Shown in pieces: positions 1-14,373 of a stretch of 64,000 nt of DNA (the stretch's first letter is position 1; every line of letters begins with the position of its first letter). A model generated the notes under the pieces. That model saw only the letters and a program-made list of their open reading frames with translations. It ran no database searches and was not told where the DNA came from. The position numbers and the translations under genes are program-made. Location of the stretch: NCBI RefSeq assembly GCF_009914755.1, contig NC_060930.1; one strand, 5' to 3'. The DNA comes from the human T2T-CHM13v2.0 reference genome, Homo sapiens.

Positions 1-339
1 TTGCTCCTCTCACTTTGGCCTGATTCAGAATCAATATTATATTCCTCACAGCTGGGAACTCTGAAGAACAGCAGCTTTGGCTGGAGTCAGAAGAAGTGGT
101 ATAATCAGCCGCAAAGGGTTCTCATTCTCTTTGGCCCCTGTTTTTGATGGTTTAACGGCTTTTTCAATGGAGAAGAAATGGAGAACAAACTTCTGTTCAG
201 TGATACTATTTACTACAGTCACAGCCTTAAAGATATATGATTTTTTTTGTGGCCTGGGTCCTTGAGACATATGCCAGCTCACAAGAAAATAGAAATTATT
301 TTGCCCTCCATATCTTTTTGTGCTTTGCTTCTTATTAAT

Positions 340-367
340 TATTATTATTATTATTATTATTATTATT
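340..367. repeat. (ATT)n microsatellite, HCRTR2 intron
   Basis: attattattattattattattattatt run. Confidence 0.9.
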
Positions 368-1127
368 TTTGCTAACAGAAATTTAATACAAATTTATTAT
401 GGCCACCTGCTAGATACTCTCTTCTGCTTTTAAGAACTTTATAAACATGTTATGTTACTGGATGGGTTTTATTCTTTCTTTCTCTTTCTAATCTTTTTTC
501 TCTTTTAGTCAGTCTAAATTCAATGAAAATTGGATTTACCTCTCTCTGGGTTACGTATTTGGATTTCCTGTATCTCAGAACTTGCTCTTTCCTTTTATTT
601 CCAACTACTTTTTTTGTCAATAATATATGTCTTATTCTTCTGACTCAAATCCCTTCCTTTCCAAGGAAAACAAATAACTTTCAAAGGAGCAAGGCTGTGT
701 TAAATTTAAGATATTTCAAGTTTTGGGGCATTCTACTCTTTTCCACAACATAAAAACTTTTGAAAAAAAGAACTTGAAAATTGTTTTTCTTGTTACCACA
801 CACATTTTTTTTCAAATGCTTATATTTATTTATCCTTGCATATGAAATTTGTTTTTTCTTTCTCCCACAAAAACCATTCCTAGCTTTTTCTCCTTAAAAC
901 TTAACTTTTTGCCGAATTAGTCAAAAGCAATTTCTTTACAACAGTTCAGGTTTGTCCAAGATTTCAAAGACATTTTGAGGTAAAGGGTCATAACATAGTA
1001 CAAATTTCTTTTGTCCGTATTATTTCACTCTATATAGTATTTTTGTAAAACTCTAGTACTCTTTATACCAGAAATGGTATAAGGTACACCTTATACCAGA
1101 AATGCATTGTTGTCATGCCTTCTTGCT

Positions 1128-1130
<3 letters not shown>

Positions 1131-1162
<32 letters not shown>
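1131..1162. repeat. (AC)16 microsatellite
   Basis: Perfect AC dinucleotide run. Confidence 0.97.
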
Positions 1163-1164
<2 letters not shown>

Positions 1165-1930
1165 ATACAGACAATCGAAGATGGAGACTTTAGCAGGAAA
1201 TATATATGATTTTTGGCCTATAATCTTATTGAGTAGCTGTAAGTTATCTGTTATAGGTTAGTGATTAGAATTTATAGATGGAATATTTCTAAGTATGGAG
1301 AAAATTTTTTAATAGTCTTTAAGGATAGCATAACAAAACATTTTTTAAAGTTTAAAATAATACATGAAAAATTAACACTCATTAATTTTTAAAAATTACC
1401 AAAATTCTGCCCATCGAGAACTGTTTCTTCTCTGGGTATTAAGGAGTCCCAGAAGGCAAGTTTCAGATAGTCCAGGAAGATTGGAGTTGAAGGCATATGA
1501 TACTTTGATCAATACATAAATGAAAGTAGGAAGAAGTACTTGAAGACTATCATTTAGGAGTGATTTTTAAATGATACACATAATAGAATATTAATACAAC
1601 ATTATTCAATTGTATTTAGAAAGAAAATGAAATAAAGAAGATATATATTCAACTTCCATATTCTTATTTACAAGAAATACTGCATCTGCTATTTGTGGGA
1701 GGGAGAGACCCTTCTCTGACCTGATTTGGCTTTTGATTTATTGATTGTGCTGTGGAGGTTCTGTTCAGGCACTGAAGTTATTCTAAACCAATTATGGGGT
1801 CAGAAACCAATCTGTGGTCAATTCCTGCAACTGAAGAGGACAGGAGTCAGACCATCCTCTACCAATAGCCTTGTTCACCTTTGAATTTAATTATTTAAAA
1901 GACACTTTTCTGTTGTTTCTTTTCCTGCAG

Positions 1931-2052
1931 AGTATTTGGGATGTTTGCCCATACTGAAGACAGAGAGACTGTGTATGCCTGGTTTACCTTTTCACACTGG
2001 CTTGTATATGCCAATAGTGCTGCGAATCCAATTATTTATAATTTTCTCAGTG
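1931..2052 (+). CDS. HCRTR2: Orexin/hypocretin receptor 2, penultimate coding exon (ECL3-TM7)
   Basis: Polypyrimidine tract and cag acceptor ending 1930; 122-nt exon translates (R)VFGMFAHTEDRETVYAWFTFSHWLVYANSAANPIIYNFLS(G) with GPCR NPxxY motif; donor G|gtgagt at 2053. Confidence 0.98.
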
Positions 2053-3832
2053 GTGAGTTTTCAACTGTTCTTCCATAAGCCACAATTGTAACCAAGGATG
2101 AGGAATCAATGAACACTCTTCAACTATATGAGGAGTTTAGTTGCTATGTGAGTTGTATTTTTTCCCTGACCTGATTTATCTTGAGTTTCTTCTCTTTTGA
2201 GGCAAAGTATTTGTTACTGAACTCATCAGAGAAAATGAACTGATTTTTCCATGTCAAACGTATAAGAAATGTTATAATAGAAGAAAAGTAAACATTCTGA
2301 GAAATCAATAACACAAAATCTTACATGACATACTTTAAACTCATGATTTACAAAAATATAAAATACTTTGTTCTGTTTTGCCTTGCTATATTATTCCTTT
2401 GCCAAAATGTGTAGCCTAATTGAGACAGAATTGGGATCTATTCACTTTTAGATATTTTACTATATTTACGTTTCTCTTGTGAGTATCATCTCTTGGATTT
2501 ATCTCAATATTTCCCACTGACTACCAAAAATAGTATTACTCCAAAATAACACATAAGTTAAATGATACACACATACATATACGTGTAACTTATACAATTT
2601 GTATCTGTTTATGGAATCAATATAATTATAAAAGTCATTTAAATCACTATTGTTTATTCACATTTTGCCCGACTGACTTTTAGAATTATGTTTTAATTAG
2701 CTACCTTTTTACATTGCCTTAATCTCCAACTCATTGGCGATTTCTTTGTTATTTCTATCTTCAAATATATGGTGATTTTATGTGGAAGAATAGAAATTCA
2801 TTTTGTGGCATATTTAATAAAGCTTCTGCATCTTCCAACTTGATCTTTGGCCTTCTGGTTTGCATAGGTTTAAAAAAAAGGCAACAAATTAGATTGATGA
2901 GAAATAATTTTGTTCTATTTAAAAAAAAATCTAGCACAATGACTAAAGCTCTGAACCTCGCACTAAGCAGGTAAAGGCTATGAGGAAGTTGTAATGAGAA
3001 GTGTTTGAAGCAGAAGTCACAGAACCAGGTCAAAGTCCTAGTATGGAGGATAAAAGTGAGTTAGAGGAGGCAACTGATAATCACTGATAACTCATTATGT
3101 GACTGCTATTGTGCTGGGCCCGTGAACATTCATCTTCTCATTTAATCACTGATAACTCAGTGCGTAGCTGAGGCTAAGAGAGAAGAAATGATTCGCAATA
3201 CTGCCATTCACACTAATAAAAGTGATTCATTCATTCTCATAGTTCTCCAATATCTCCTCCATAATTTAAAGACAAGGAATAGCTTCTACAGTATTTTTCC
3301 CCCTTCAGTTTTTGTTCTTTCTTATATAGATTATGAAACTGAAAATTTTCTGGATATTTGAGTGTATGTTTCTAGGTATTTTGTGGATTTAATTGTTTCA
3401 GTATCAGTTATTTAGAGTAAAATGCAGGAGTAATTTTTGTATAATTTTGGCTTTGTATGACATAAGTTTCATTGTGTTTAATTATTAAATATCTCTGAGA
3501 GTTCTTCTACTGATGATCACTTCCATTATAGTTATGTAGATAAAATATACCAATATGCGTAAATATATGAGGTTTGACTATAAAGGAATGAAGCAAATTC
3601 CAAGCCCCATATGTGAAAGGCAGCCTCGTTATTTTATGAAAATATTCATTGTTTCAAGAGTCTACCAAGCTTCCAATAAACTCAATTTCCTTATTCTATT
3701 TTACCCATCTTTGCAAAATATTACACCTCATTGTTAGTTTGGCTCAAGGGAGCAACTCAGTTGTACCCTATTCATAATTTGTTGAAGCATTTATGTATAA
3801 TTCCTTTTCCTTTCATTCTCTCTGTTTGCCAG

Positions 3833-4062
3833 GAAAATTTCGAGAGGAATTTAAAGCTGCGTTTTCTTGCTGTTGCCTTGGAGTTCACCATCGCCAGGAG
3901 GATCGGCTCACCAGGGGACGAACTAGCACAGAGAGCCGGAAGTCCTTGACCACTCAAATCAGCAACTTTGATAACATATCAAAACTTTCTGAGCAAGTTG
4001 TGCTCACTAGCATAAGCACACTCCCAGCAGCCAATGGAGCAGGACCACTTCAAAACTGGTAG
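3833..4062 (+). CDS. HCRTR2: Orexin receptor 2, last canonical coding exon (helix 8 and C-terminal tail)
   Basis: tctgtttgccag acceptor; phase 1 matches previous exon; GKFREEFKAAFSCCCLGVHHRQED...GAGPLQNW then TAG at 4060-4062; matches the recalled human OX2R C-terminus. Confidence 0.98.
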
Positions 4063-4201
4063 AATATTTATTCATATGACAAGGATACCTGAGTAAAACT
4101 ATCCTTTTTAAAATCACTGGGAACAGAAATTTTATTATCCTATGATGTGAAGCTAAAATTACTTGTGGATCTTTTTTTTTTTTAATCTATTGCTCTTTGG
4201 A

Positions 4202-4207
4202 AATAAA
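4202..4207 (+). terminator. HCRTR2: Candidate proximal polyadenylation signal of HCRTR2
   Basis: AATAAA 140 nt after the stop; it runs into a genomic A-tract. Confidence 0.6.
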
Positions 4208-4809
4208 AAAAAAGTCAGTTTAAAATGATTTCTCAACTTTTGATTTAAATATGTTAGAAGTTTAACCTTCAATTGAGCTTATTTCAGGCTATTTCACTTT
4301 TAGTTTCATGTATTAAAATGTGTCAATTAAATGTTTAAACATTTCTAATTCTTTTTATAATCCCTTGTTATTTTAATCTCTCACATTCAGATTGGTTCCT
4401 AAAAATTACCAGAATCTATCCAATGATTTTTTTTGCTACTAAAAGAAGTAGCAATTACTAATTCTGAATTAACAATAGACATGTTAGTTGACTTAATAGT
4501 TTTTTTAAAAAAAATCACAAGACTGTTGTTATAATGTGATATCTGAGAAAATATTTATATATAAAATAGCATATTGTGTTAGGTAATTCAAAAACTATCT
4601 TACAAAACTATATACTCACTCATTTACACAATTTTCTCAGGTTTGCAAATTGACCATTGCTAACATTTCTTGTCTCAACATATGGCCAGTAAGACTCTAT
4701 CACAGTAAAAGTTTTAACGTAATTTCCATCTCTAACACTTTAACATTTAAGAATAAGCTAAATCACATCATTATATTCTTTTAACAACAACAACAAAAAG
4801 TGATATAGT

Positions 4810-4960
4810 CAGCCTTGCTGGATTAAATTAAAAATGCACCACTGTGCTAGGTGCTAGGGAATGAGATGGCGTCGATGCAAACATGCCTTCAAAAGAGCTT
4901 CAGTCTAGTGAGGGAGACATGTTGACAGAGTGCAAGGCAGCAAACAATCTGGGGGACAAT
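4810..4960 (-). mobile_element. L2 3' fragment
   Basis: cactgtgctaggtgctagggaatg...gagcttcagtctagtgagggagaca resembles the reverse-complemented L2 3' end. Confidence 0.65.
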
Positions 4961-5925
4961 TCTTGGTCATGGCAGAGCAGTGAAGCTACCAAGGACAGTG
5001 GTCTTCACCAGAAAGTTTGTAGCGCAGTTGCACTTTTTTTTTTTCTTCAATTTAATTACAATGACAGTTGATGTCAGTGGATTCCATCTGGGCCTGGGGC
5101 TGAGTACCAGGTGGTTAAAAAATAGAGGGGCTTGCTCTTAACTCACACATACATGAATAGACTATCGTATATTTTGTAGAAAATGTAAGATCTGGGAGTC
5201 AAAGCACTGAGTATTCAAACTTATTCCCCTGAAAAATTCTTCTGATTCAAATATTTACTTGAAAATTAAACTAAAAGTAAAAGAAGTGTTTATGAAAGAT
5301 GATTTTCATCTCCTATTATGGTAACAGGTGTTCTGATTGTATTGAAACAAAAGATATGGGGCACAGTGTTTAAGAAAAACTTTCATAGAAAATTAATTTT
5401 TGTTATTTTTTCATTTTTCCATTACACTCAGAGAAAAGTAAAAGAGCCTAATTATCCACAACTTGTTTTCAAATCTTGGAATTTGGGATTCTGTTACCTT
5501 GTGCCTTTTATGACTCAAAGCAAAAACTATCTTCTTATACAAGGTTTATTGAGATCATATTGTAAAATATCAGCACTATATCAGTGAAAGCAAGGTATTT
5601 TAACTCTCTCCTTTCTCCCCTTTGTATATTTTAGAACTTCTTTTCTTATTTATGCTGCATGAAAGGAGAGTTGTAATTTTCGGATCGTGATGACAGCACT
5701 TTAAAAAGTTTGAGGATAACTTCAAATAACGTTGATAATATGCCTTAATAGCCAGTAATAGCTCAGAGGAAGAGTAAATTCCTTAGACCCAAATATACCT
5801 ACTTATAATTTAAAAGAGAGAAAAGGGAGAGAGATTGAGAGGGAAAGGGGGAGAGAAGGAAAAAACTGACTCAGAGAGCAGCAGTTATGTGACGTATGGG
5901 AAGTCAGAATTCCTTTGCTCTAAAT

Positions 5926-6109
5926 CAGTGATTCTCAAAATGTGGTTTCTATACCATCGGCATCAGCATCATCTGGGAACTTAGTGGACATGCTAACTTC
6001 CACCCTATCCCTCACCTACTTAACCAGAAACTTTAGGGGTGATAGCCCAAAAGCTGTGTGTTAAGCACTACAGGTGTTTCTGAAGCACTTTAAGATTTGA
6101 GATCCACTG
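5926..6109. mobile_element. MER5A-like hAT-Charlie DNA transposon (MITE)
   Basis: Terminal inverted repeats cagtgattctcaaa / tttgagatccactg; internal gcatcagcatcatctgggaac; degenerate 8-bp TSD ctctaaat/ctttaagt. Confidence 0.85.
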
Positions 6110-6174
6110 CTTTAAGTGATACCATCTGACATCAGTTTATCTGCCTGTGTGAAATAAAGTCTTTTACTGCACAG

Positions 6175-6229
6175 GTGTCTACAACAGGGGCCACCATCAT
6201 CGCTACCGTCAACGTGGTTGGATGTCTGA
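6175..6229 (+). CDS. HCRTR2: Putative alternative terminal exon of HCRTR2 (ortholog of rodent OX2R-beta tail)
   Basis: cttttactgcacag acceptor; joined to donor TG|gtagaa (4058/4059) it gives W-CLQQGPPSSLPSTWLDV-TGA; ATTAAA at 6275-6280. Confidence 0.75.
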
Positions 6230-9200
6230 AAGAAGAAGCTGAGTATCAATGTTGACTCTCACTCATGTCATCTTATTAAAAAAAAAACAGTTTACAAAAC
6301 AATTGCTACTGATAAATGCAGTGTGAAAGACTGGTTTTAAGGCACTGGTTTAAGGCACTGCTTTATGTCCACCCAGATAACTTGAGTTTTTAACTAAAAG
6401 TTTCAAATCACTATCTTCTTTATACTTACTAAAGTTCGTTTTGCAGAAGCAGATAGTTTCTAAGAATGATCATTTCATGGAAGGAGATATAAAATAAAAT
6501 AAAACCAGTACTTAAACTCTGGGAATGTAATAGGCCATGTACATAGCACTCAACATGTGAATCCAGGAATCCTTCTAAGAGGTCTAGATTTAGTATGGTT
6601 ACCTTAATAGGACAAATGGTAAAGAAATAGGTGTTCCCAAACTCTGCCAATCTTATGAAACAAAGAGTCAACTCTTTACCTCATTATTTGCTAATGACAC
6701 AAATGCAAAGACATCTTTTGAAAAGAATGTGTTGGGACTGTTTTATGCTGTACCTTGAATGTGTATCTCTCTTTTTTTTGCTATATTTCAAAGATTTAAT
6801 GTAAGTTGTCAATGTCATTGAGTTCTTGTTATCAATAGGGATGATATAATTTTATCTAACATGGAATCCATTTTAACTTTGTTATTTCTGAATTTCTATG
6901 AAACCACAAAAACCTTCATACTTGAATTTATTTATTCTTGGCTAAAGATTACTCCCAGTTTGTGAGGAAATTTATTTCTGAGTTTCCAAAGCTTGGAGAA
7001 TTTATTGGATATTAAATACCTGTTATAAATTATTGATGAGTTAATTGCAAGTAGCAGACACAATGATATTGAATTTCACTCCCAATACACATTGTTTTAA
7101 TGAAGATTAAGGTAAATATGTTTATAAAATTTAGTCTGGCTATGCTTAAACCTGAAATAGCAGAATGGCAAAAAACCCCAAAGCTGTTTATGGACCCAAA
7201 TTGTGAGGAGGGCTATTATTTTAATACTTGTGTAATAATAGAATGCACTTGATGTAAATTGTAATAGCCATCAACTGCATTTCAAAAACCTTTCGCTAGC
7301 CACTACAATTTAGAAAGCTTTTCAGTGTCAGTTAGTTTTACAACAAATGCCTTTTCTACTTTCTACAAGTCACAAGTCAAAAAAAAGTAAATTCCACCAA
7401 GTTTTATTCAATTAGTTTTCAAATTGCATGAAGCAAAAAATAGATTTTTAGAGACAATATATAAATAGAAAAAATATTGTAAAAGTCTACTCTATTACCT
7501 TATGTACCACAAAAAAATAAAGTACAAAGGCATGAAAAACACTATTATTTCCCAAAGTTCAAAGGGAATTGTTTTCTACGCAACTACTGCTACTAACAAG
7601 GGGACAACAACCCCCTCCACTTGCCACGTATTTTTATTCTCTTTTCTTTATATCTTTGGAGTTAAATGTCTTTTATGTTTTTCATGAAATGTATTCTATA
7701 ATTGTTGTATTTCATGTGTGTAACATTATGTCAGTTGTTTTAACAATTATCTTATATCTTGAAATTCTTTATGCCTGATTGTACTGTGTCTTCATGAAGA
7801 AATTTCTTATCAAATCCAATGTGATTACACACTTACTGCTGTAAAGGATGCGCATTATGTAGTTTTTAAGTAAAAACTATAGTGAGAATTCTATAATCAC
7901 ATTCACACTCCCCTCTCTATTGTATGAAAAATCTTGTTGTTGTTGATTAGATAAGGTGGATATTCACTCATAGTTAATGTCAAATCTCTGCAGTTAAGGA
8001 TTGAATTAAGCCCTCTGGTGCAGTACCTAATGATCAAAACATTTTTTCCAATAAGTTTATATAACCAAGGATAATAATGATATAAAAGGTTTTTAATGTT
8101 GTTTTTAAGAGCAGGTACTATAACAAAGAAGGTTAACACTGGTACAGAAATATTTCATAAAAGTTATGAAAACCAGATAAATACAGTATTAAATTTTGGA
8201 GCTTTTATCTGAGTTGAGAGATTTAGTCTACATTGACTGAGATGAAATGATGAACTCATAATTTTCAATTTATTATCAGAATAATAAGTGACATTTACAT
8301 AATTAATTTTTTTCTGGGCCATTTTGTATAAGTCATTTAGGACTATTTTAAGTTCACTGGTAAATTTTAAAATGTATATTTTCAGCTTTTCAATTTTTTT
8401 CAAAATAGTTCTGAGAAATTACAGAATCAGATACTAAGGATATTAATTTAAAAATCAATTTTTATTCAGCACTATTTATTCTAACATATATAAAAAATGA
8501 AGCCAAAGTAACCCGTCAAGGTAAATACTTGACTCCTAGGAAAATGTGATTTTAGTAGGCATCTCAAGAGGAAGTGAAACTTCTCGTGGTGAAATTACAA
8601 GAAAAACAAGTTATTCAGTGGTGAGAATGTGTTGCTCTAAGCAATCCATTAGCACAGACTAGCTACTTGGCCACTCCTCTTCCTTCTGGAGCCAGCCCTG
8701 AAGAGTGGTCACAGCATCTTCATTTTTATCCAGGCCAATGGCCATGCATGAGAAGTTGGGTAGCAAAATTCTTGAAGCACCTCTTTGTTCTTGCTCTTCT
8801 TTCACTGTTTTCTCACTCTCCACCTGTAATGCTCACTGCCAGTTTTACCACCAAGCTAAGTATCAGCAGACCTCCCTCCACAGCGTGCCTTGCCCTGTAG
8901 AACTCCTGGTCCTTCCTTCAGCCCAACCCCATCCAATTGCCTAGGTTCTTGTTGTCTCCTGAGATGAACAAGAGGCAAGTAGCTAATTTGAGAACAAATG
9001 AAGCAGAGCTGAAGGAAAAAGTAAAACATTTATTTTTTCATATCCCAAATTTTATAATTTTACATTTTTTTAAAACCCATTCATTTTCTTCCCAGAACAT
9101 TTATGCTTATCAGTGGTCTTCTGAATCTGTGACAACTCCCTTTTCAAGCCCCAGCTAAGCTTCTTGCCTCAAGCCAGAAGGAATCCCAGTTTTGAGTCTT

Positions 9201-11735
9201 GTGTTAAGGCCATGGCAGGTCAGTAGGGAGATTATCTGAGGAGGTACCGCTTGTGACACCTTCAGAAACAAAACAGCTATTGCCTTACGTTTCATAGGCC
9301 CAGGCCCTGAGCAATAGCAAAAAGATAATACTTATTTTTTTAAACTGTTGTTTATTAGGTGATCGATTTCTAATTAATTTCAAAATATTTAAGGTAATAT
9401 TTTAATTACCGAGGAAGAATGGTACAAACAAAATGTTGTGGAACTGGAAAATCCTCAGTGCTTGGCAACATGAAACTTATTTAACTTATTATAGATGAGA
9501 TAATGAGAACATCTTCAGAAAAGAAGCTATGTTCCTTAAAACAGGGGTACAGATTTAAAAGCTCTGTTTATATGGTTTTGGTAGACTAAGTGAAGAACTT
9601 GCCTATAAAGCTGAGTCTAGATCATATAGCATATCCATTATAAAGTGAGAAAATTGCAATTTTAGAGTATTGTCAATACATCCAAAAATTTTTACATGAT
9701 TTCTAAATGCAGATGTGTGTGTGTGTATGTCTACGTATGTCTCTCCATATGCAACAAGCAGTTAATTAGTCCAAATATATCCCACAGTGTAGATTAGTTT
9801 CATATCTCAGCTCTTCAATGTCTCTTCTTCATTTAATTCACTCCTTGGTGTCTAGTTTTCCTCACTCTTTTACAAATATCCAGGTTCTATATTTCTGCTT
9901 TTCTAGAGAGCTTTTTCCCTCAAGAATATATTTCTTTTTCTTTCTTTCTCTTTATTTTTGTTTGTTTTTAACTAACATTCATATGGTTATAACAATTTGA
10001 GACAAGTGAAAAGGAAAGATCTGTAAACTGCCTATCTCCTTTGAAATTCATTGCCAATAATCCTTAAGAATATAAAGTTCCTTGATGCCAAAGACCTTCT
10101 CATTAGTGTTGCTGCCTGTTGTTTCATTGGTTCCCTAGAACAATGCCTGGCACATAAAAGTTATTTGATAAATATCTCTGCTATTAATGAATTAATAATA
10201 ACTGCATGACAATTCTTTCCTCAATTCATCATTTTGCTTCATTTTCTCACAGTTGCTTCAATGTGTCTGTGGAACTATCTTTCCATGTGAACAAAACACT
10301 CTACATTCTCAGTGTCTACAAAGCACATATTTCCTTTTATTAAAATTAAACTTTGAGAGCACCAAATCCTAATGTCTAACCATCATCAAACTGGCAGATA
10401 GCACCAGTATTCTTTTTGCTCACCAATTTTATGCCCAGGCATCTACTGTTTCTTTCATGAATAAAACCTGACACCTGTAAGAGGATTTATCATGGTGAAC
10501 TTCTCTTTGTTACTGACATTTTCAGCCTCTTGGGCTCTCCCCTCCTTACTTATACACATTGGCACCCAGCTTGAAGTCATACTCTCTAGACCCTGGGTCA
10601 ATGTGGGTAATGCATCCAGGAATCCAGCTTAACTCTTCCTTGGTCTCTTTGATGTGACTGACCTTTATTTCTACATTTCTTCATCAAACCAGTCTCACAG
10701 TTTTGCACAGTGCAGATCACATGCTGCACCGTGTGCTTATTATCTCCTATAACAACAGATGCTCCACTGAAATGCAAAACTCTGTGTTAAGCCAACAACT
10801 GCTTCTCCATCCTTTCCTCCTATACGTTTCTTCTCACTACAACTTCCCTTCTCAACCCCAAAGGGACTACTGGATTCTTTACTCTTTTATTTTACCCCAG
10901 TCTATCAGTCCCATCCTGGACTTCCTTCCTTCTCTGCTTAGAGGAAAGCAAGATGCTCAGGTAGAATTGCACTTATGACTAGATATTATTTACTTCAAAC
11001 AAATTCTTACTATTTTGTCCTGATGAAATTCATGACAGTTTTCATACAACAGAAAGCCTGCCCTCTTAGAAGAGAAGAGAACTGAAAAGAAATGGTTGAA
11101 GTAAGGTAGAAAGCCCTCATGGAGTTAGGTGGCTAGGCCAGCAGAGCTAGGCACTGTTCTCCTGTTCAGAATTGCACTCCTGATACTCCAGATGGGAAGC
11201 CTGCCATGGCACTAACCACAGCACTTTTTATACCCTATCTCTGCTATTATGAGCCCACATTAGTTTTTCTTCTGCTTCAGAAATTGTTGCAAAAAATAAT
11301 TTTATTATTTACAAATTATTTTTAAACCATATAAATCTGCTTAGTTTGATTTCTCAAACCCTCTAAAACTTACACTTCTTGTTGTCCAATCTTTGCTTTT
11401 AATTGGGTATAATTTGAGGCAGAAATAAATTAATCTCATTTTTAAAAATGTACTAGCTATTAATAATTTTTAAATTTATCTTCTAAAATTGGAAAGTATC
11501 CACTTTAAATGCATCTGTAGCAAGGACTTTTTACATACATTCTGTAGCTTTATTACTTCCATTGAGAACTGTTAAAATAACAGAACTTACCTCACTGTAC
11601 GCTGGCTTTTGAAAAGGCAGCAGAACTGTTTATCTGATTATCGAAGTAATCATATTACATTTCTTTTTCTTTTCTAAGAGAAACCTTCTTCATGTGCTCA
11701 GTCAAACATTTTGGTGTTTAAGAATTGACTTATTA

Positions 11736-12122
<387 letters not shown>

Positions 12123-12562
12123 TTATTTGTTGCATCTATATAGTCTATCAATTCTAAAAGCACACTTTATGCGAAAATGTAGTCTAGGCCTTCAGAATGT
12201 ATTATTACAAGAAAGTATCTATCAACCATGTTTCATTTGTTTGCATGTTTTGTTTTGTTTCCAATAGACTATGAATATTCAGCTTCAAATGCTACCTCAT
12301 GATTGTTACATTCCTGTTGTTGAAAGAACCCATCTCTTTCTTACCTTCTTGTCCCTAAATTGTGTTCTTCTTATAACTTACTTTGCACATAACCATAATG
12401 GAGTGAGATCATAGAATTAAGAGGATTGAGAAAGAAAAATACTTCCCTCATTCCATTGGCAGTAATCTGTGATTCAAAAGTTAACAACATACCATGTATT
12501 CTTGTAGGAGATTCTTTCATGCTTATCACTGATCAACTTACATGCAGGTTAAAACCAGCCCT

Positions 12563-13272
12563 GAAAAAATGCTCATCATCACTGGCCATCAGAGAAATAC
12601 AAATCAAAACCACAATGAGATACCATCTCACACCAGAAGAATGGCGATCATTAAAAAGTCAGGAAATAACACTTGCTGGAGAGGATGTGGAGAAATATGA
12701 ACACTTTTACACTGTTGCTGGGAGCGTAAACTAGTTCAACCATTGTGGAAGACAGTGTGGCAATTACTCAAGGATCTAGACTAGAAATACCATTTGACCC
12801 AGCCATCCCATTACAGGGTATATACCCAAAAGATTATAAATCATGCTACTATAAAGGCACATGCACACGTATGTTTATTGCGGCACTATTCACAATAGCA
12901 AAGACTTGGAACCAACCCAAATATCCATCAATGATAGACTGGATTAAGAAAATGTGGCACATATACACCATGGAATACTATGCAGCCATCTGAGCAAACT
13001 ATCGCAAGGACAGAAAACCAAACTCCGCATGTTCTCACTCATAGGTGGGAATTGAACAATGAGAACACTTGGACACAGGGTGGGGAACATCACACACCGG
13101 GGCCTATCATGGGGTGGGGGTAGGAGGGAGGGATAGCATTAGGAGAAATACCTAATGTAAATGATGAGTTAATAGGTGCAGTACTCCAACATGGCACATG
13201 TATACATATGTAACAAACCTGCACGTTGTGCACGTGTACCCTAGAACTTAAAATATAATTTAAAAAAAAAAA
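12563..13272 (+). mobile_element. 5'-truncated L1PA (ORF2 C-terminus and 3' UTR) with internal deletion
   Basis: [17 protein letters not shown]..., [17 protein letters not shown]; poly(A) tail; short TSD agccct. Confidence 0.95.
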
Positions 13273-13953
13273 GCCCTAAATGCAACTTGTTCAGATAACT
13301 GGAGCCATCTTCCTAGCTCTTTATTTCTCAGACAGTGTGGGTAAGTCCTGCTCCGTACGAATGCTTATGTCAGTTTTGAAGTTCAGTACTTTCTTAAGAG
13401 CCAGAGTCAGTCAAGATGTTCCCTTAACAAGATTTTTCAATGGGGTTACACATTAATGAGTTCTTTTTCCTCCTTTAAGTATTTGAAAATTTTGGTTTAA
13501 TAAAAGGTTTAACTATGATGAATTTAGGATCCTTTTTCCTGTTACAGAACACAGAATAATAGTTAATATTTTACATACATATTGCAAGTTCATGTTGCCA
13601 CTAGGAGTGTCCAGAATAGACGATTGAAACAGCCTTCTAGCTACTACTATCAAAAAAGAGCTTTAAATAACATATTTTAATTAAATAACATTATTTTCTA
13701 TAGCTATACCTCAATAAAACCATCAACCAATGTTTGTACAATTTGATGCCCCCACTCTAAGATTTTTAGCTAGTGTAAATCAGAGTCTCCTATTTAATGA
13801 GACACTTTATCCAATCAGGTTGTGTTTATTATTCAACCAGATGATCTTGGAACTTATAACAAACTAGTAATATTTAAAGCTGGGCTTTATGTGCGTGATT
13901 TACTGGGATGTTTGCTTATACCTTGTTTCCAAGCTAAAAATATTGTGACCAGG

Positions 13954-14373
13954 TGTGTTAGTCTGTTTTGAGTTGCCATATAGGACTACCTAATGCTGGG
14001 TCATTTATAAAGAAAAGAGGTTTATTTGGATTATGGTTCTGCAGGCTGTACAAAGAGCATGACATCAGCATCTGCTTCTGGTAATGCTCTCAGGAAGCTT
14101 TTACTCATGCCAGAAGGCAAGGGGAGCCAGCGTGCCACATGGCAAGAGAGGGAGGAAGCACAAGAGAGAGGAGACGTACCAGGCACTTTTTAACAACCAG
14201 CTCTCACATGAACTAACAGAGTGATAACTCACTCAATACCCGGGGGATGGCACCAAGCCATTCATGAAGGATTTGCCCTCATGACCAAATACCTCCCACT
14301 AGGCCCAACCTCCAACACTGGGGGTCTCATTTCAACATGAGATTTGGAAGGGACGACTATCCAAACTATATCA
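13954..14373 (-). mobile_element. MST-family (MaLR) solo LTR
   Basis: TG...CA ends, typical gaaaagaggtttattt and cccactaggcccaacctccaac motifs; 5-bp TSD ccagg/tcagg. Confidence 0.9.

What the first reader, a model, noticed from the sequence alone, without database searches (positions are those of the whole stretch)
4057..6280. Hidden, intact HCRTR2 terminal exon encoding an OX2R-beta-type C-terminal tail
Seen: the last codons TGG TAG contain a GT donor (CTG|gtagaa; exon would end at 4058). About 2.1 kb downstream, cttttactgcacag|G TGT CTA CAA CAG GGG CCA CCA TCA TCG CTA CCG TCA ACG TGG TTG GAT GTC TGA (6175-6229) rebuilds the Trp codon and adds 17 aa, CLQQGPPSSLPSTWLDV. ATTAAA follows at 6275. 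Recalled knowledge: rodent OX2R has a long isoform (460 aa vs 443 aa) ending W-YLQQGVPSSLLSTWLEV, which is 13/17 identical with the same length and stop position, whereas human OX2R is usually described as the 444-aa form ending LQNW. Inference: a conserved 461-aa human isoform whose new end (-L-D-V) fits a class II PDZ ligand and adds Ser/Thr sites, potentially changing trafficking, arrestin coupling or drug response. The exon is too short for the ORF track. It may already exist as a predicted gene model.
Basis: partly seen in the sequence, partly recalled or inferred. Interest (0 to 1): 0.93.

Follow-up and report, generated by a model that had tools for sequence, protein, structure and literature searches.

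The report
Annotated alternative last exon of HCRTR2
The "hidden" exon is real in the sequence, but RefSeq already lists it as a predicted alternative ending of the human orexin-2 receptor, like the known mouse OX2-beta variant, and nothing here shows that human tissues use it.

Summary
HCRTR2 exon 7 ends ...GPLQNW + TAG. The GT at 4059-4060 can act as a donor. An AG at 6173-6174 precedes G + 17 codons + TGA, encoding CLQQGPPSSLPSTWLDV. ATTAAA lies at 6275.

It is not hidden. RefSeq's Gnomon model XM_054355266.1 uses exactly this junction, coding end and a 3' end at 6321. Joining the annotated exons gives intact reading frames of 444 and 461 aa.

Reviews describe mouse OX2-alpha/beta variants differing by 17 C-terminal residues, both measured in mouse brainstem.

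The signals alone are modest. The donor sits at the 3.6th percentile of 197 real donors and the acceptor at the 41st percentile. 19% of nearby AG sites would add 17 or more residues.

I could not test conservation of the tail. Length limits kept full-length orthologues out of reach, and 0 of 21 fetched OX2R fragments carries it. No searched paper describes a human variant.

Best reading: a composite exon where weak splicing competes with a proximal AATAAA, so the 444-aa form probably dominates. The PDZ and arrestin ideas remain speculation. Already known; low-to-moderate interest.

The parts
3833..4058 (+). HCRTR2 exon 7, the part shared by both forms. It encodes the C-terminal tail up to ...GPLQN plus the first two bases (TG) of the Trp codon.
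   Evidence: It matches the Pfam profile Orexin_rec2 (PF03827) over positions 1-57 of 57, and the profile ends at this Trp.
4057..4062 (+). TGG TAG: the terminal Trp codon and the stop of the curated 444-aa form. The GT at 4059-4060 is the weak 5' splice site of the long form (CTG|GTAGAA).
   Evidence: The donor scores 3.7 bits, the 3.6th percentile of 197 real chr6 donors.
4063..4225 (+). 3' UTR of the curated transcripts NM_001384272.1 and NM_001526.5. It carries AATAAA at 4202-4207 and the transcript ends at 4225. In the long form this stretch is intronic.
4059..6174 (+). Intron of the predicted long-form transcript (2116 nt). It is unique sequence with no masked repeat. A candidate branch point CTGAC lies at 6126-6130, and an AATAAA at 6153-6158 lies just upstream of the acceptor.
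   Evidence: exon table; no masked repeat between 870 and 11738; letters; hexamers. The branch point is inferred from the recalled yUnAy consensus and was not tested.
6175..6229 (+). Coding part of the alternative last exon. G completes the Trp codon, then CLQQGPPSSLPSTWLDV follows, with TGA at 6227-6229.
   Evidence: The acceptor scores 8.0 bits, the 41st percentile of 196 real acceptors, and ranks 5th of 310 AG sites in 4060-9000.
6230..6321 (+). 3' UTR of the predicted long-form transcript. ATTAAA is at 6275-6280 and the model ends at 6321, followed by TGTG and GGTTTT.

Best explanation
This is an alternative last exon of HCRTR2, already present in RefSeq as the predicted transcript XM_054355266.1. 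It would give a 461-aa orexin-2 receptor whose cytoplasmic tail is 17 residues longer than the curated 444-aa form. That is the same design as the published mouse OX2-beta versus OX2-alpha pair.

Exon 7 acts as a composite exon. If cleavage and polyadenylation occur at the AATAAA at 4202, 144 nt past the donor, the transcript ends at 4225 and translation stops at the TAG right after Trp. This yields the 444-aa, alpha-type form. If the weak 5' splice site inside TGG|TAG is used first, 2116 nt are removed. The G at 6175 then restores the Trp codon, 17 more codons are read, and the message ends after the ATTAAA at 6275.

The donor is weak and the proximal signal is a canonical AATAAA, so I expect the 444-aa form to predominate in human tissue and the long form to be minor or cell-type restricted.

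Shown: the sequence elements, the intact frames, the identity with the RefSeq model, and the existence of the mouse pair. Inferred: orthology with the rodent beta exon, actual use in human tissue, and any functional difference.
For: - Identical junction, coding end and 3' end in XM_054355266.1.
- Intact reading frames of 444 and 461 aa.
- GT and AG dinucleotides, an average-strength acceptor and a weak donor.
- AATAAA at 4202 and ATTAAA at 6275.
- No masked repeat in the region and no Rfam family match in 1-12000.
- Both mouse variants were quantified by variant-specific qPCR in brainstem and were absent in knockouts (PMC3869224 passages).
- The mouse alpha-specific reverse primer printed in that paper has its best match in the whole 64-kb window at 4075-4092, directly 3' of the TAG (15 of 18 bases). 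This is what is expected if mouse alpha is the unspliced read-through form.
- The model carries a 92-nt 3' UTR. From my knowledge of how Gnomon builds models, this usually needs transcript evidence (inference, not checked).
Against: - The donor is at the 3.6th percentile of real donors, and 38 of 263 local GT sites score at least as well.
- A 17-codon open stretch is unremarkable: 19% of 310 local AG sites would give at least that.
- The alpha-primer match is not significant by itself: 7 of 50 shuffled primers score as well somewhere in the window.
- The mouse beta-specific reverse primer and the common forward primer give no match above chance (24 of 50 and 20 of 50 shuffles).
- 0 of 21 fetched OX2R proteins from other vertebrates carries this tail. 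12 of 21 end at the Trp, including three rodents (gopher, porcupine, guinea pig). All are fragments or N-truncated models of 380 aa or less, so this is a weak test.
- The curated RefSeq transcripts and all 6 matched PDB sequences use or stop before the 444-aa end.
- The paralogue HCRTR1 has no comparable exon.
- No paper found describes a human variant.
Confidence: 0.7

Rival explanations
1. The exon is a conserved relic that is annotated but not functional in human. It descends from the rodent-type beta exon and still looks intact. In human the weak donor is almost never used, and the Gnomon model rests mainly on similarity to rodent proteins. The 444-aa receptor would then be the only physiologically relevant form.
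For: - Weak donor at the 3.6th percentile, with a canonical AATAAA only 144 nt downstream.
- Only a predicted transcript (XM) has the exon, and both curated transcripts (NM) lack it.
- Reviews and the 2025/26 Concise Guide passages mention no human variant.
- A study of the human OX2R C-terminus treats 444 aa as the protein (PMC5482145 passage).
- The only full-length solved construct is 444 aa (7sqo_R).
Against: - The frame, stop, acceptor and ATTAAA are all intact.
- The model has a 3' UTR ending 41 nt after the ATTAAA, which suggests transcript support (inference).
Confidence: 0.22
2. It is a chance arrangement. An ordinary AG with a short open frame happens to lie downstream of a Trp-stop that always contains GT. 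It has no evolutionary relation to the rodent beta exon.
For: - GT after TG is automatic for Trp plus any stop codon.
- 19% of 310 nearby AG sites give 17 or more added residues.
- A stronger acceptor-like site at 8734 gives a 69-residue open frame with no annotation. This shows that such look-alikes occur here.
Against: - The added length, 17 residues, equals the published mouse alpha/beta difference.
- Only 2 of 310 AG sites combine a good acceptor score with 17 or more residues.
- A poly(A) signal follows 46 nt after the stop.
- An independent annotation pipeline chose the same exon.
This is unverified here.
Confidence: 0.06

Closest known systems
RefSeq predicted transcript XM_054355266.1 (HCRTR2, Gnomon, T2T-CHM13v2.0)
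   Same: Identical in every respect tested: donor at 55122058, acceptor at 55124175, coding end at 55124229 and transcript end at 55124321. It gives 461 aa.
   Different: Nothing differs; the finding is this model. It is a computational prediction and not a curated (NM) transcript.
Mouse OX2-alpha / OX2-beta C-terminal splice variants (Chen and Randeva 2004, Mol Endocrinol 18:2790; known to me only through citing papers)
   Same: Both are alternative C-termini of the same receptor that differ by 17 residues. In mouse the two forms are separately detectable by RT-PCR. Binding affinities were reported equal, with a higher maximal inositol-phosphate response of beta to orexin-B (PMC12689969 passage). 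Alpha/beta heterodimers have been reported.
   Different: Sequence identity of the tails was not testable here. In mouse brainstem beta mRNA was measured at levels comparable to or above alpha. For human there is no published measurement in the library I searched. One review calls beta 'likely ... truncated', which conflicts with the 17-residue difference and appears to be a guess.
Composite terminal exons, where splicing competes with intronic polyadenylation, as in the immunoglobulin mu secreted/membrane switch (recalled textbook example)
   Same: A 5' splice site lies upstream of a poly(A) signal inside the same exon, and a downstream terminal exon has its own poly(A) signal.
   Different: No regulation has been shown for HCRTR2. 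The coding difference here is only 17 residues of a cytoplasmic tail.
Alligator mississippiensis 'orexin receptor type 2 isoform B' (P0008, NCBI)
   Same: The protein continues past the conserved terminal Trp, and the first added residue is Cys, as in human.
   Different: It adds 27 residues that are otherwise unlike the human 17. tblastn of its tail against window 1-14000 gave no hit below E = 5.

Membership tests
RefSeq HCRTR2 predicted isoform (XM_054355266.1) | Same donor, acceptor, coding end and transcript end | tested here: met
   exons ...55121833-55122058, 55124175-55124321, with coding sequence ending at 55124229. These equal window 4058, 6175, 6321 and 6229.
Rodent-type OX2R-beta C-terminal splice isoform | Alternative C-terminus that differs from the alpha form by 17 residues | tested here: met
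   The human tail adds 17 residues, giving 461 against 444 aa. [quoted passage not shown]
Rodent-type OX2R-beta C-terminal splice isoform | The alpha-specific sequence is the unspliced read-through directly after the shared exon | tested here: inconclusive
   The best window-wide match of the mouse alpha reverse primer (from PMC3869224) is 4075-4092, 15 of 18 bases. However, 7 of 50 shuffled primers score as well somewhere in the window. The beta reverse primer shows no match above chance, with 24 of 50 shuffles as good.
Rodent-type OX2R-beta C-terminal splice isoform | Tail sequence homologous to the rat/mouse beta tail, in the same frame with the same stop | not testable with these tools
The protein search only reaches 0.55-1.75 times the query length, so full-length 444-461-aa orthologues were out of reach in 3 of 3 searches. 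0 of 21 fetched OX2R fragments has the tail.
Rodent-type OX2R-beta C-terminal splice isoform | Spliced transcript detected in tissue | not testable with these tools
   Sequencing reads are off for this job, and no paper on a human variant was found.
Composite terminal exon / alternative last exon | An internal 5' splice site followed by a poly(A) signal in the same exon, plus a downstream terminal exon with its own poly(A) signal | tested here: met
   The donor is after 4058, AATAAA is at 4202 and the curated transcript ends at 4225. The acceptor is at 6175, ATTAAA is at 6275 and the predicted transcript ends at 6321.
Class II PDZ-binding C-terminus | Hydrophobic-x-hydrophobic at the free C-terminus (definition recalled) | tested here: met
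   The last three residues are L-D-V. This is a low-information pattern, so meeting it says little.
Class II PDZ-binding C-terminus | Binding to a PDZ domain | not testable with these tools
   This needs a binding assay. 'PDZ' occurs 0 times in the one paper on the OX2R C-terminus that I read by term search (PMC5482145).

The most novel reading that the evidence does not exclude
The human 461-aa OX2R-beta form is made in particular neurons or peripheral cells. Its longer tail adds four more Ser/Thr and an L-D-V end. This changes arrestin binding, trafficking or pairing with the 444-aa form, as reported for the mouse alpha/beta heterodimer. Responses to OX2R agonists and antagonists would then differ by cell type.

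A wider version: the Trp-stop that doubles as a splice donor is an ancient vertebrate switch. The terminal Trp is kept from sturgeon to mammals, and an alligator model also splices onward from it.
Probability: 0.15. Interest if true: 0.55.

Novelty: already known. Interest (0 to 1): 0.27.

Why it matters
OX2R is the target of marketed sleep drugs and of agonists in development for narcolepsy (Concise Guide 2025/26 passages). All pharmacology and structures that I saw use the 444-aa form.

If a 461-aa form were expressed in human brain, the receptor's cytoplasmic tail would differ in some cells. That tail is the region implicated in arrestin and other protein contacts (PMC4018553 passage). The mouse data hint at different maximal signalling and at heterodimers.

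The exon itself is already in public annotation, so what is missing is evidence of expression and function, not discovery of the exon.

Tried and rejected
1. **Cross-species test of the tail.** The length limit still kept full-length orthologues out. The searches returned 22 named hits, and 6, 11 and 7 candidates from unnamed sources were left out by the tool. I fetched 21 OX2R-type hits and did not fetch P0022, an OX1R fragment. None carries the tail.

2. **Mouse qPCR primers from PMC3869224 as orthology probes.** Only the alpha primer lands where expected, and not significantly.

3. **Paralogue test.** The last exon of HCRTR1 aligns with exon 7 only up to ...VVLTSVTTVLP plus a stop. Hits to the 17-residue tail are at chance level, on the wrong strand or upstream of that exon.

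4. **Bird, alligator, guinea-pig and peacock tails against window 1-14000 by tblastn.** Apart from the expected matches to exon 7, nothing scored below E = 0.3.

5. **Pfam.** The Orexin_rec2 profile ends at the Trp, so it cannot score the tail.

6. **Rfam on 1-12000.** 0 matches. ORF list for 3800-6500: nothing beyond exon 7 that bears on the finding.

7. **Literature.**
   - Chen and Randeva 2004 and 2010 are not held.
   - A search for the tail's last seven residues together with 'orexin' found 0 papers.
   - 'HCRTR2' plus 'GPCR isoforms' found 1 paper, which I did not read.
   - One search was badly framed: 1,906 papers, and none of the 15 listed holds HCRTR2.
   - PMC4018553 and PMC9044999 hold 0 occurrences of 'splice', 'splicing' or 'isoform'.
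   - Supplements are closed. Isoform catalogues kept in supplementary tables could list this transcript, and I could not see them.

8. **Rejected: repeat-derived exon** (no masked repeat). **Rejected: non-coding RNA**.


Full report
**What is in the sequence**

Exon 7 of HCRTR2 (window 3833 onward) read in frame from 3835 gives KFREEF...TLPAANGAGPLQNW followed by TAG at 4060-4062. The letters around the end are CTG|GTAGAA, so a GT sits at 4059-4060. At 6173-6174 an AG follows ...GTCTTTTACTGCAC, and the next base, G at 6175, would complete TG+G = Trp. The stretch 6176-6229 reads CLQQGPPSSLPSTWLDV plus a stop. ATTAAA is at 6275-6280. Every coordinate in the finding is right.

**It is already annotated**

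The chromosome table lists three HCRTR2 mRNAs. The curated NM_001384272.1 (the 'select' transcript) and NM_001526.5 end their coding sequence at window 4062 and the transcript at 4225. The Gnomon model XM_054355266.1 ends exon 7 at 55122058 (window 4058). It adds an exon at 55124175-55124321 (window 6175-6321) and ends its coding sequence at 55124229 (window 6229).

I joined the annotated coding parts in a script, using the window plus L022-L026. This gave 1335 nt = 444 aa and 1386 nt = 461 aa. Both have a start Met, no internal stop and a final stop.

**How good are the signals by themselves?**

I built simple weight matrices from curated chr6 mRNAs inside twenty 10-kb loci (L001-L020), using 197 GT donors and 196 AG acceptors. 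These are home-made matrices from gene-dense regions, so the scores are rough.

| Site | Score | Percentile of real sites | Local rank |
|---|---|---|---|
| Donor CTG\|GTAGAA | 3.7 bits | 3.6th | 38 of 263 GT sites in 3833-9000 score at least as well |
| Acceptor at 6175 | 8.0 bits | 41st | 5th of 310 AG sites in 4060-9000 |

- The six constitutive HCRTR2 introns have ordinary sites.
- A GT after TG is automatic for any Trp-stop.
- Of the 310 AG sites, 101 would make TGA at once, 57 rebuild Trp, and 19% would add 17 or more residues.
- Only two sites (6175 and 8734) combine an acceptor score of at least 8.0 with 17 or more added residues.

The arrangement is better than a random AG, but the sequence alone would not carry the claim.

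**Surroundings**

- No masked repeat of 100 nt or more lies between 870 and 11738. That 10.9-kb gap is in the top 0.63% of such gaps on chr6.
- No Rfam family matches in 1-12000.
- No other ORF of note lies in 3800-6500 on either strand.
- AATAAA at 4202 serves the curated 3' end at 4225. Further hexamers lie at 4312, 4326, 4822, 4827, 5265 and 6153 inside the would-be intron.
- A 13-nt unit is repeated 2.7 times at 6330-6365, just after the model's end.

**Mechanism**

Exon 7 is a composite exon. It becomes a terminal exon if the AATAAA at 4202 is used. It becomes an internal exon if the weak donor at 4058 is spliced to 6175, with the ATTAAA at 6275 then ending the message. The stop of the long form lies in the last exon, so nonsense-mediated decay is not expected (inference). 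The weak donor and the nearby canonical AATAAA make me expect the 444-aa form to dominate in human tissue. This is inference and nothing here measures it.

**Literature**

I saw only passages found by term search, not whole papers.

[quoted passage not shown] - PMC12689969 reports equal affinities but a higher maximal inositol-phosphate response of beta to orexin-B. It guesses that beta is 'truncated', which does not fit the 17-residue difference.
- PMC3869224 measured both variants in mouse brainstem with variant-specific primers: beta 1.94E-5 and alpha 7.16E-6 of total RNA in C57BL6, on separate scales. Both were absent in knockouts.
- PMC13478096 cites Chen and Randeva 2004, 2006 and 2010 for tissue-specific variants.
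- The primary papers of 2004 and 2010 are not held.
- PMC4018553 and PMC9044999 contain no occurrence of 'splice', 'splicing' or 'isoform'.
- PMC5482145 treats human OX2R as 444 aa and never mentions PDZ.
- The orexin section of the 2025/26 Concise Guide, in the passages shown, mentions no variant.
- Searches turned up no description of a human long form. One search was badly framed and uninformative.

Supplements were closed, so isoform tables there remain unseen.

**Conservation**

This is the weak point. The protein search only sees proteins of 0.55 to 1.75 times the query length, and no HCRTR2 exon encodes more than about 81 residues. Three searches reached only fragments and N-truncated models of 380 aa or less.

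- Of the 21 OX2R-type proteins fetched, 12 end exactly at the Trp. These are bear, platypus, crocodile, potoo, camel, two frogs, lungfish, gopher, sturgeon, porcupine and guinea pig.
- One, alligator 'isoform B', continues past the Trp with 27 different residues.
- The other 8 end otherwise or are cut.
- None has the human 17-residue tail.

This shows that the 444-type end is ancient. It says little about the long form. From my own memory, rat OX2R is listed as 460 aa, which fits, but that too is only recall.

The Pfam Orexin_rec2 profile ends at the Trp. HCRTR1 has no comparable exon. Bird and alligator tails find nothing in window 1-14000. The mouse alpha primer maps best at 4075-4092, where the model predicts it, but 7 of 50 shuffles do as well. 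The beta primer maps nowhere above chance.

**Structures**

Six PDB sequences match exon 7. The only full-length one (7sqo_R) is 444 aa and the others stop earlier.

**Functional claims**

L-D-V fits the hydrophobic-x-hydrophobic pattern (definition recalled), and the tail adds three Ser and one Thr. Both are low-information features. Neither shows function.

**Verdict**

The exon is a real and intact sequence feature with the same design as mouse OX2-beta.
- It is already a RefSeq predicted isoform, its use in human tissue is unshown, and its conservation could not be tested here.
- Novelty: already known. Interest: low to moderate, because no experimental work on a human long form was found and OX2R is an active drug target.

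Noticed in passing
window 871-11737: A 10.9-kb stretch covers the 3' end of HCRTR2 and about 5.4 kb beyond it, with no masked repeat of 100 nt or more. Only 0.63% of inter-repeat gaps on chr6 are this long. It may mark conserved non-coding sequence or a longer 3' UTR.
   Followed up: partly
window 8734-8944: This is the best acceptor-like site of 310 AG sites in 4060-9000 (11.5 bits). In the phase set by the 4058 donor it would rebuild Trp and add 69 residues (PMAMHEKLGS...). It is not annotated and the translation looks nondescript, so it is probably chance.
   Followed up: partly
window 6330-6365: A 13-nt unit, ACTGGTTTAAGGC, is repeated 2.7 times directly after the annotated end of the alternative last exon.
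   Followed up: no
window 6153-6158: A canonical AATAAA lies 16 nt upstream of the acceptor AG, inside the would-be intron. It could end unspliced read-through transcripts.
   Followed up: no
P0005 (Chlamydotis macqueenii partial OX2R-like protein), last residues: The bird fragment leaves the mammalian tail after ...PANG and carries 62 other residues. Its cut end reads LQQG, the same four residues as positions 2-5 of the human 17-residue tail. Long avian C-termini might contain a beta-like exon, or this could be coincidence.
   Followed up: no
P0001-P0021: The terminal Trp followed at once by a stop is kept in 12 of 21 OX2R models, from sturgeon and lungfish to mammals. An alligator model (P0008) splices onward from the same Trp to a different 27-residue tail that also starts with Cys. 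The Trp-stop that doubles as a donor may be an old feature of the gene.
   Followed up: partly
P0003 (Neotoma lepida, partial): This rodent gene model ends at ...GPLQN without the Trp, that is, at the split codon. This is what a predictor would give if it expected a further exon after the donor.
   Followed up: no
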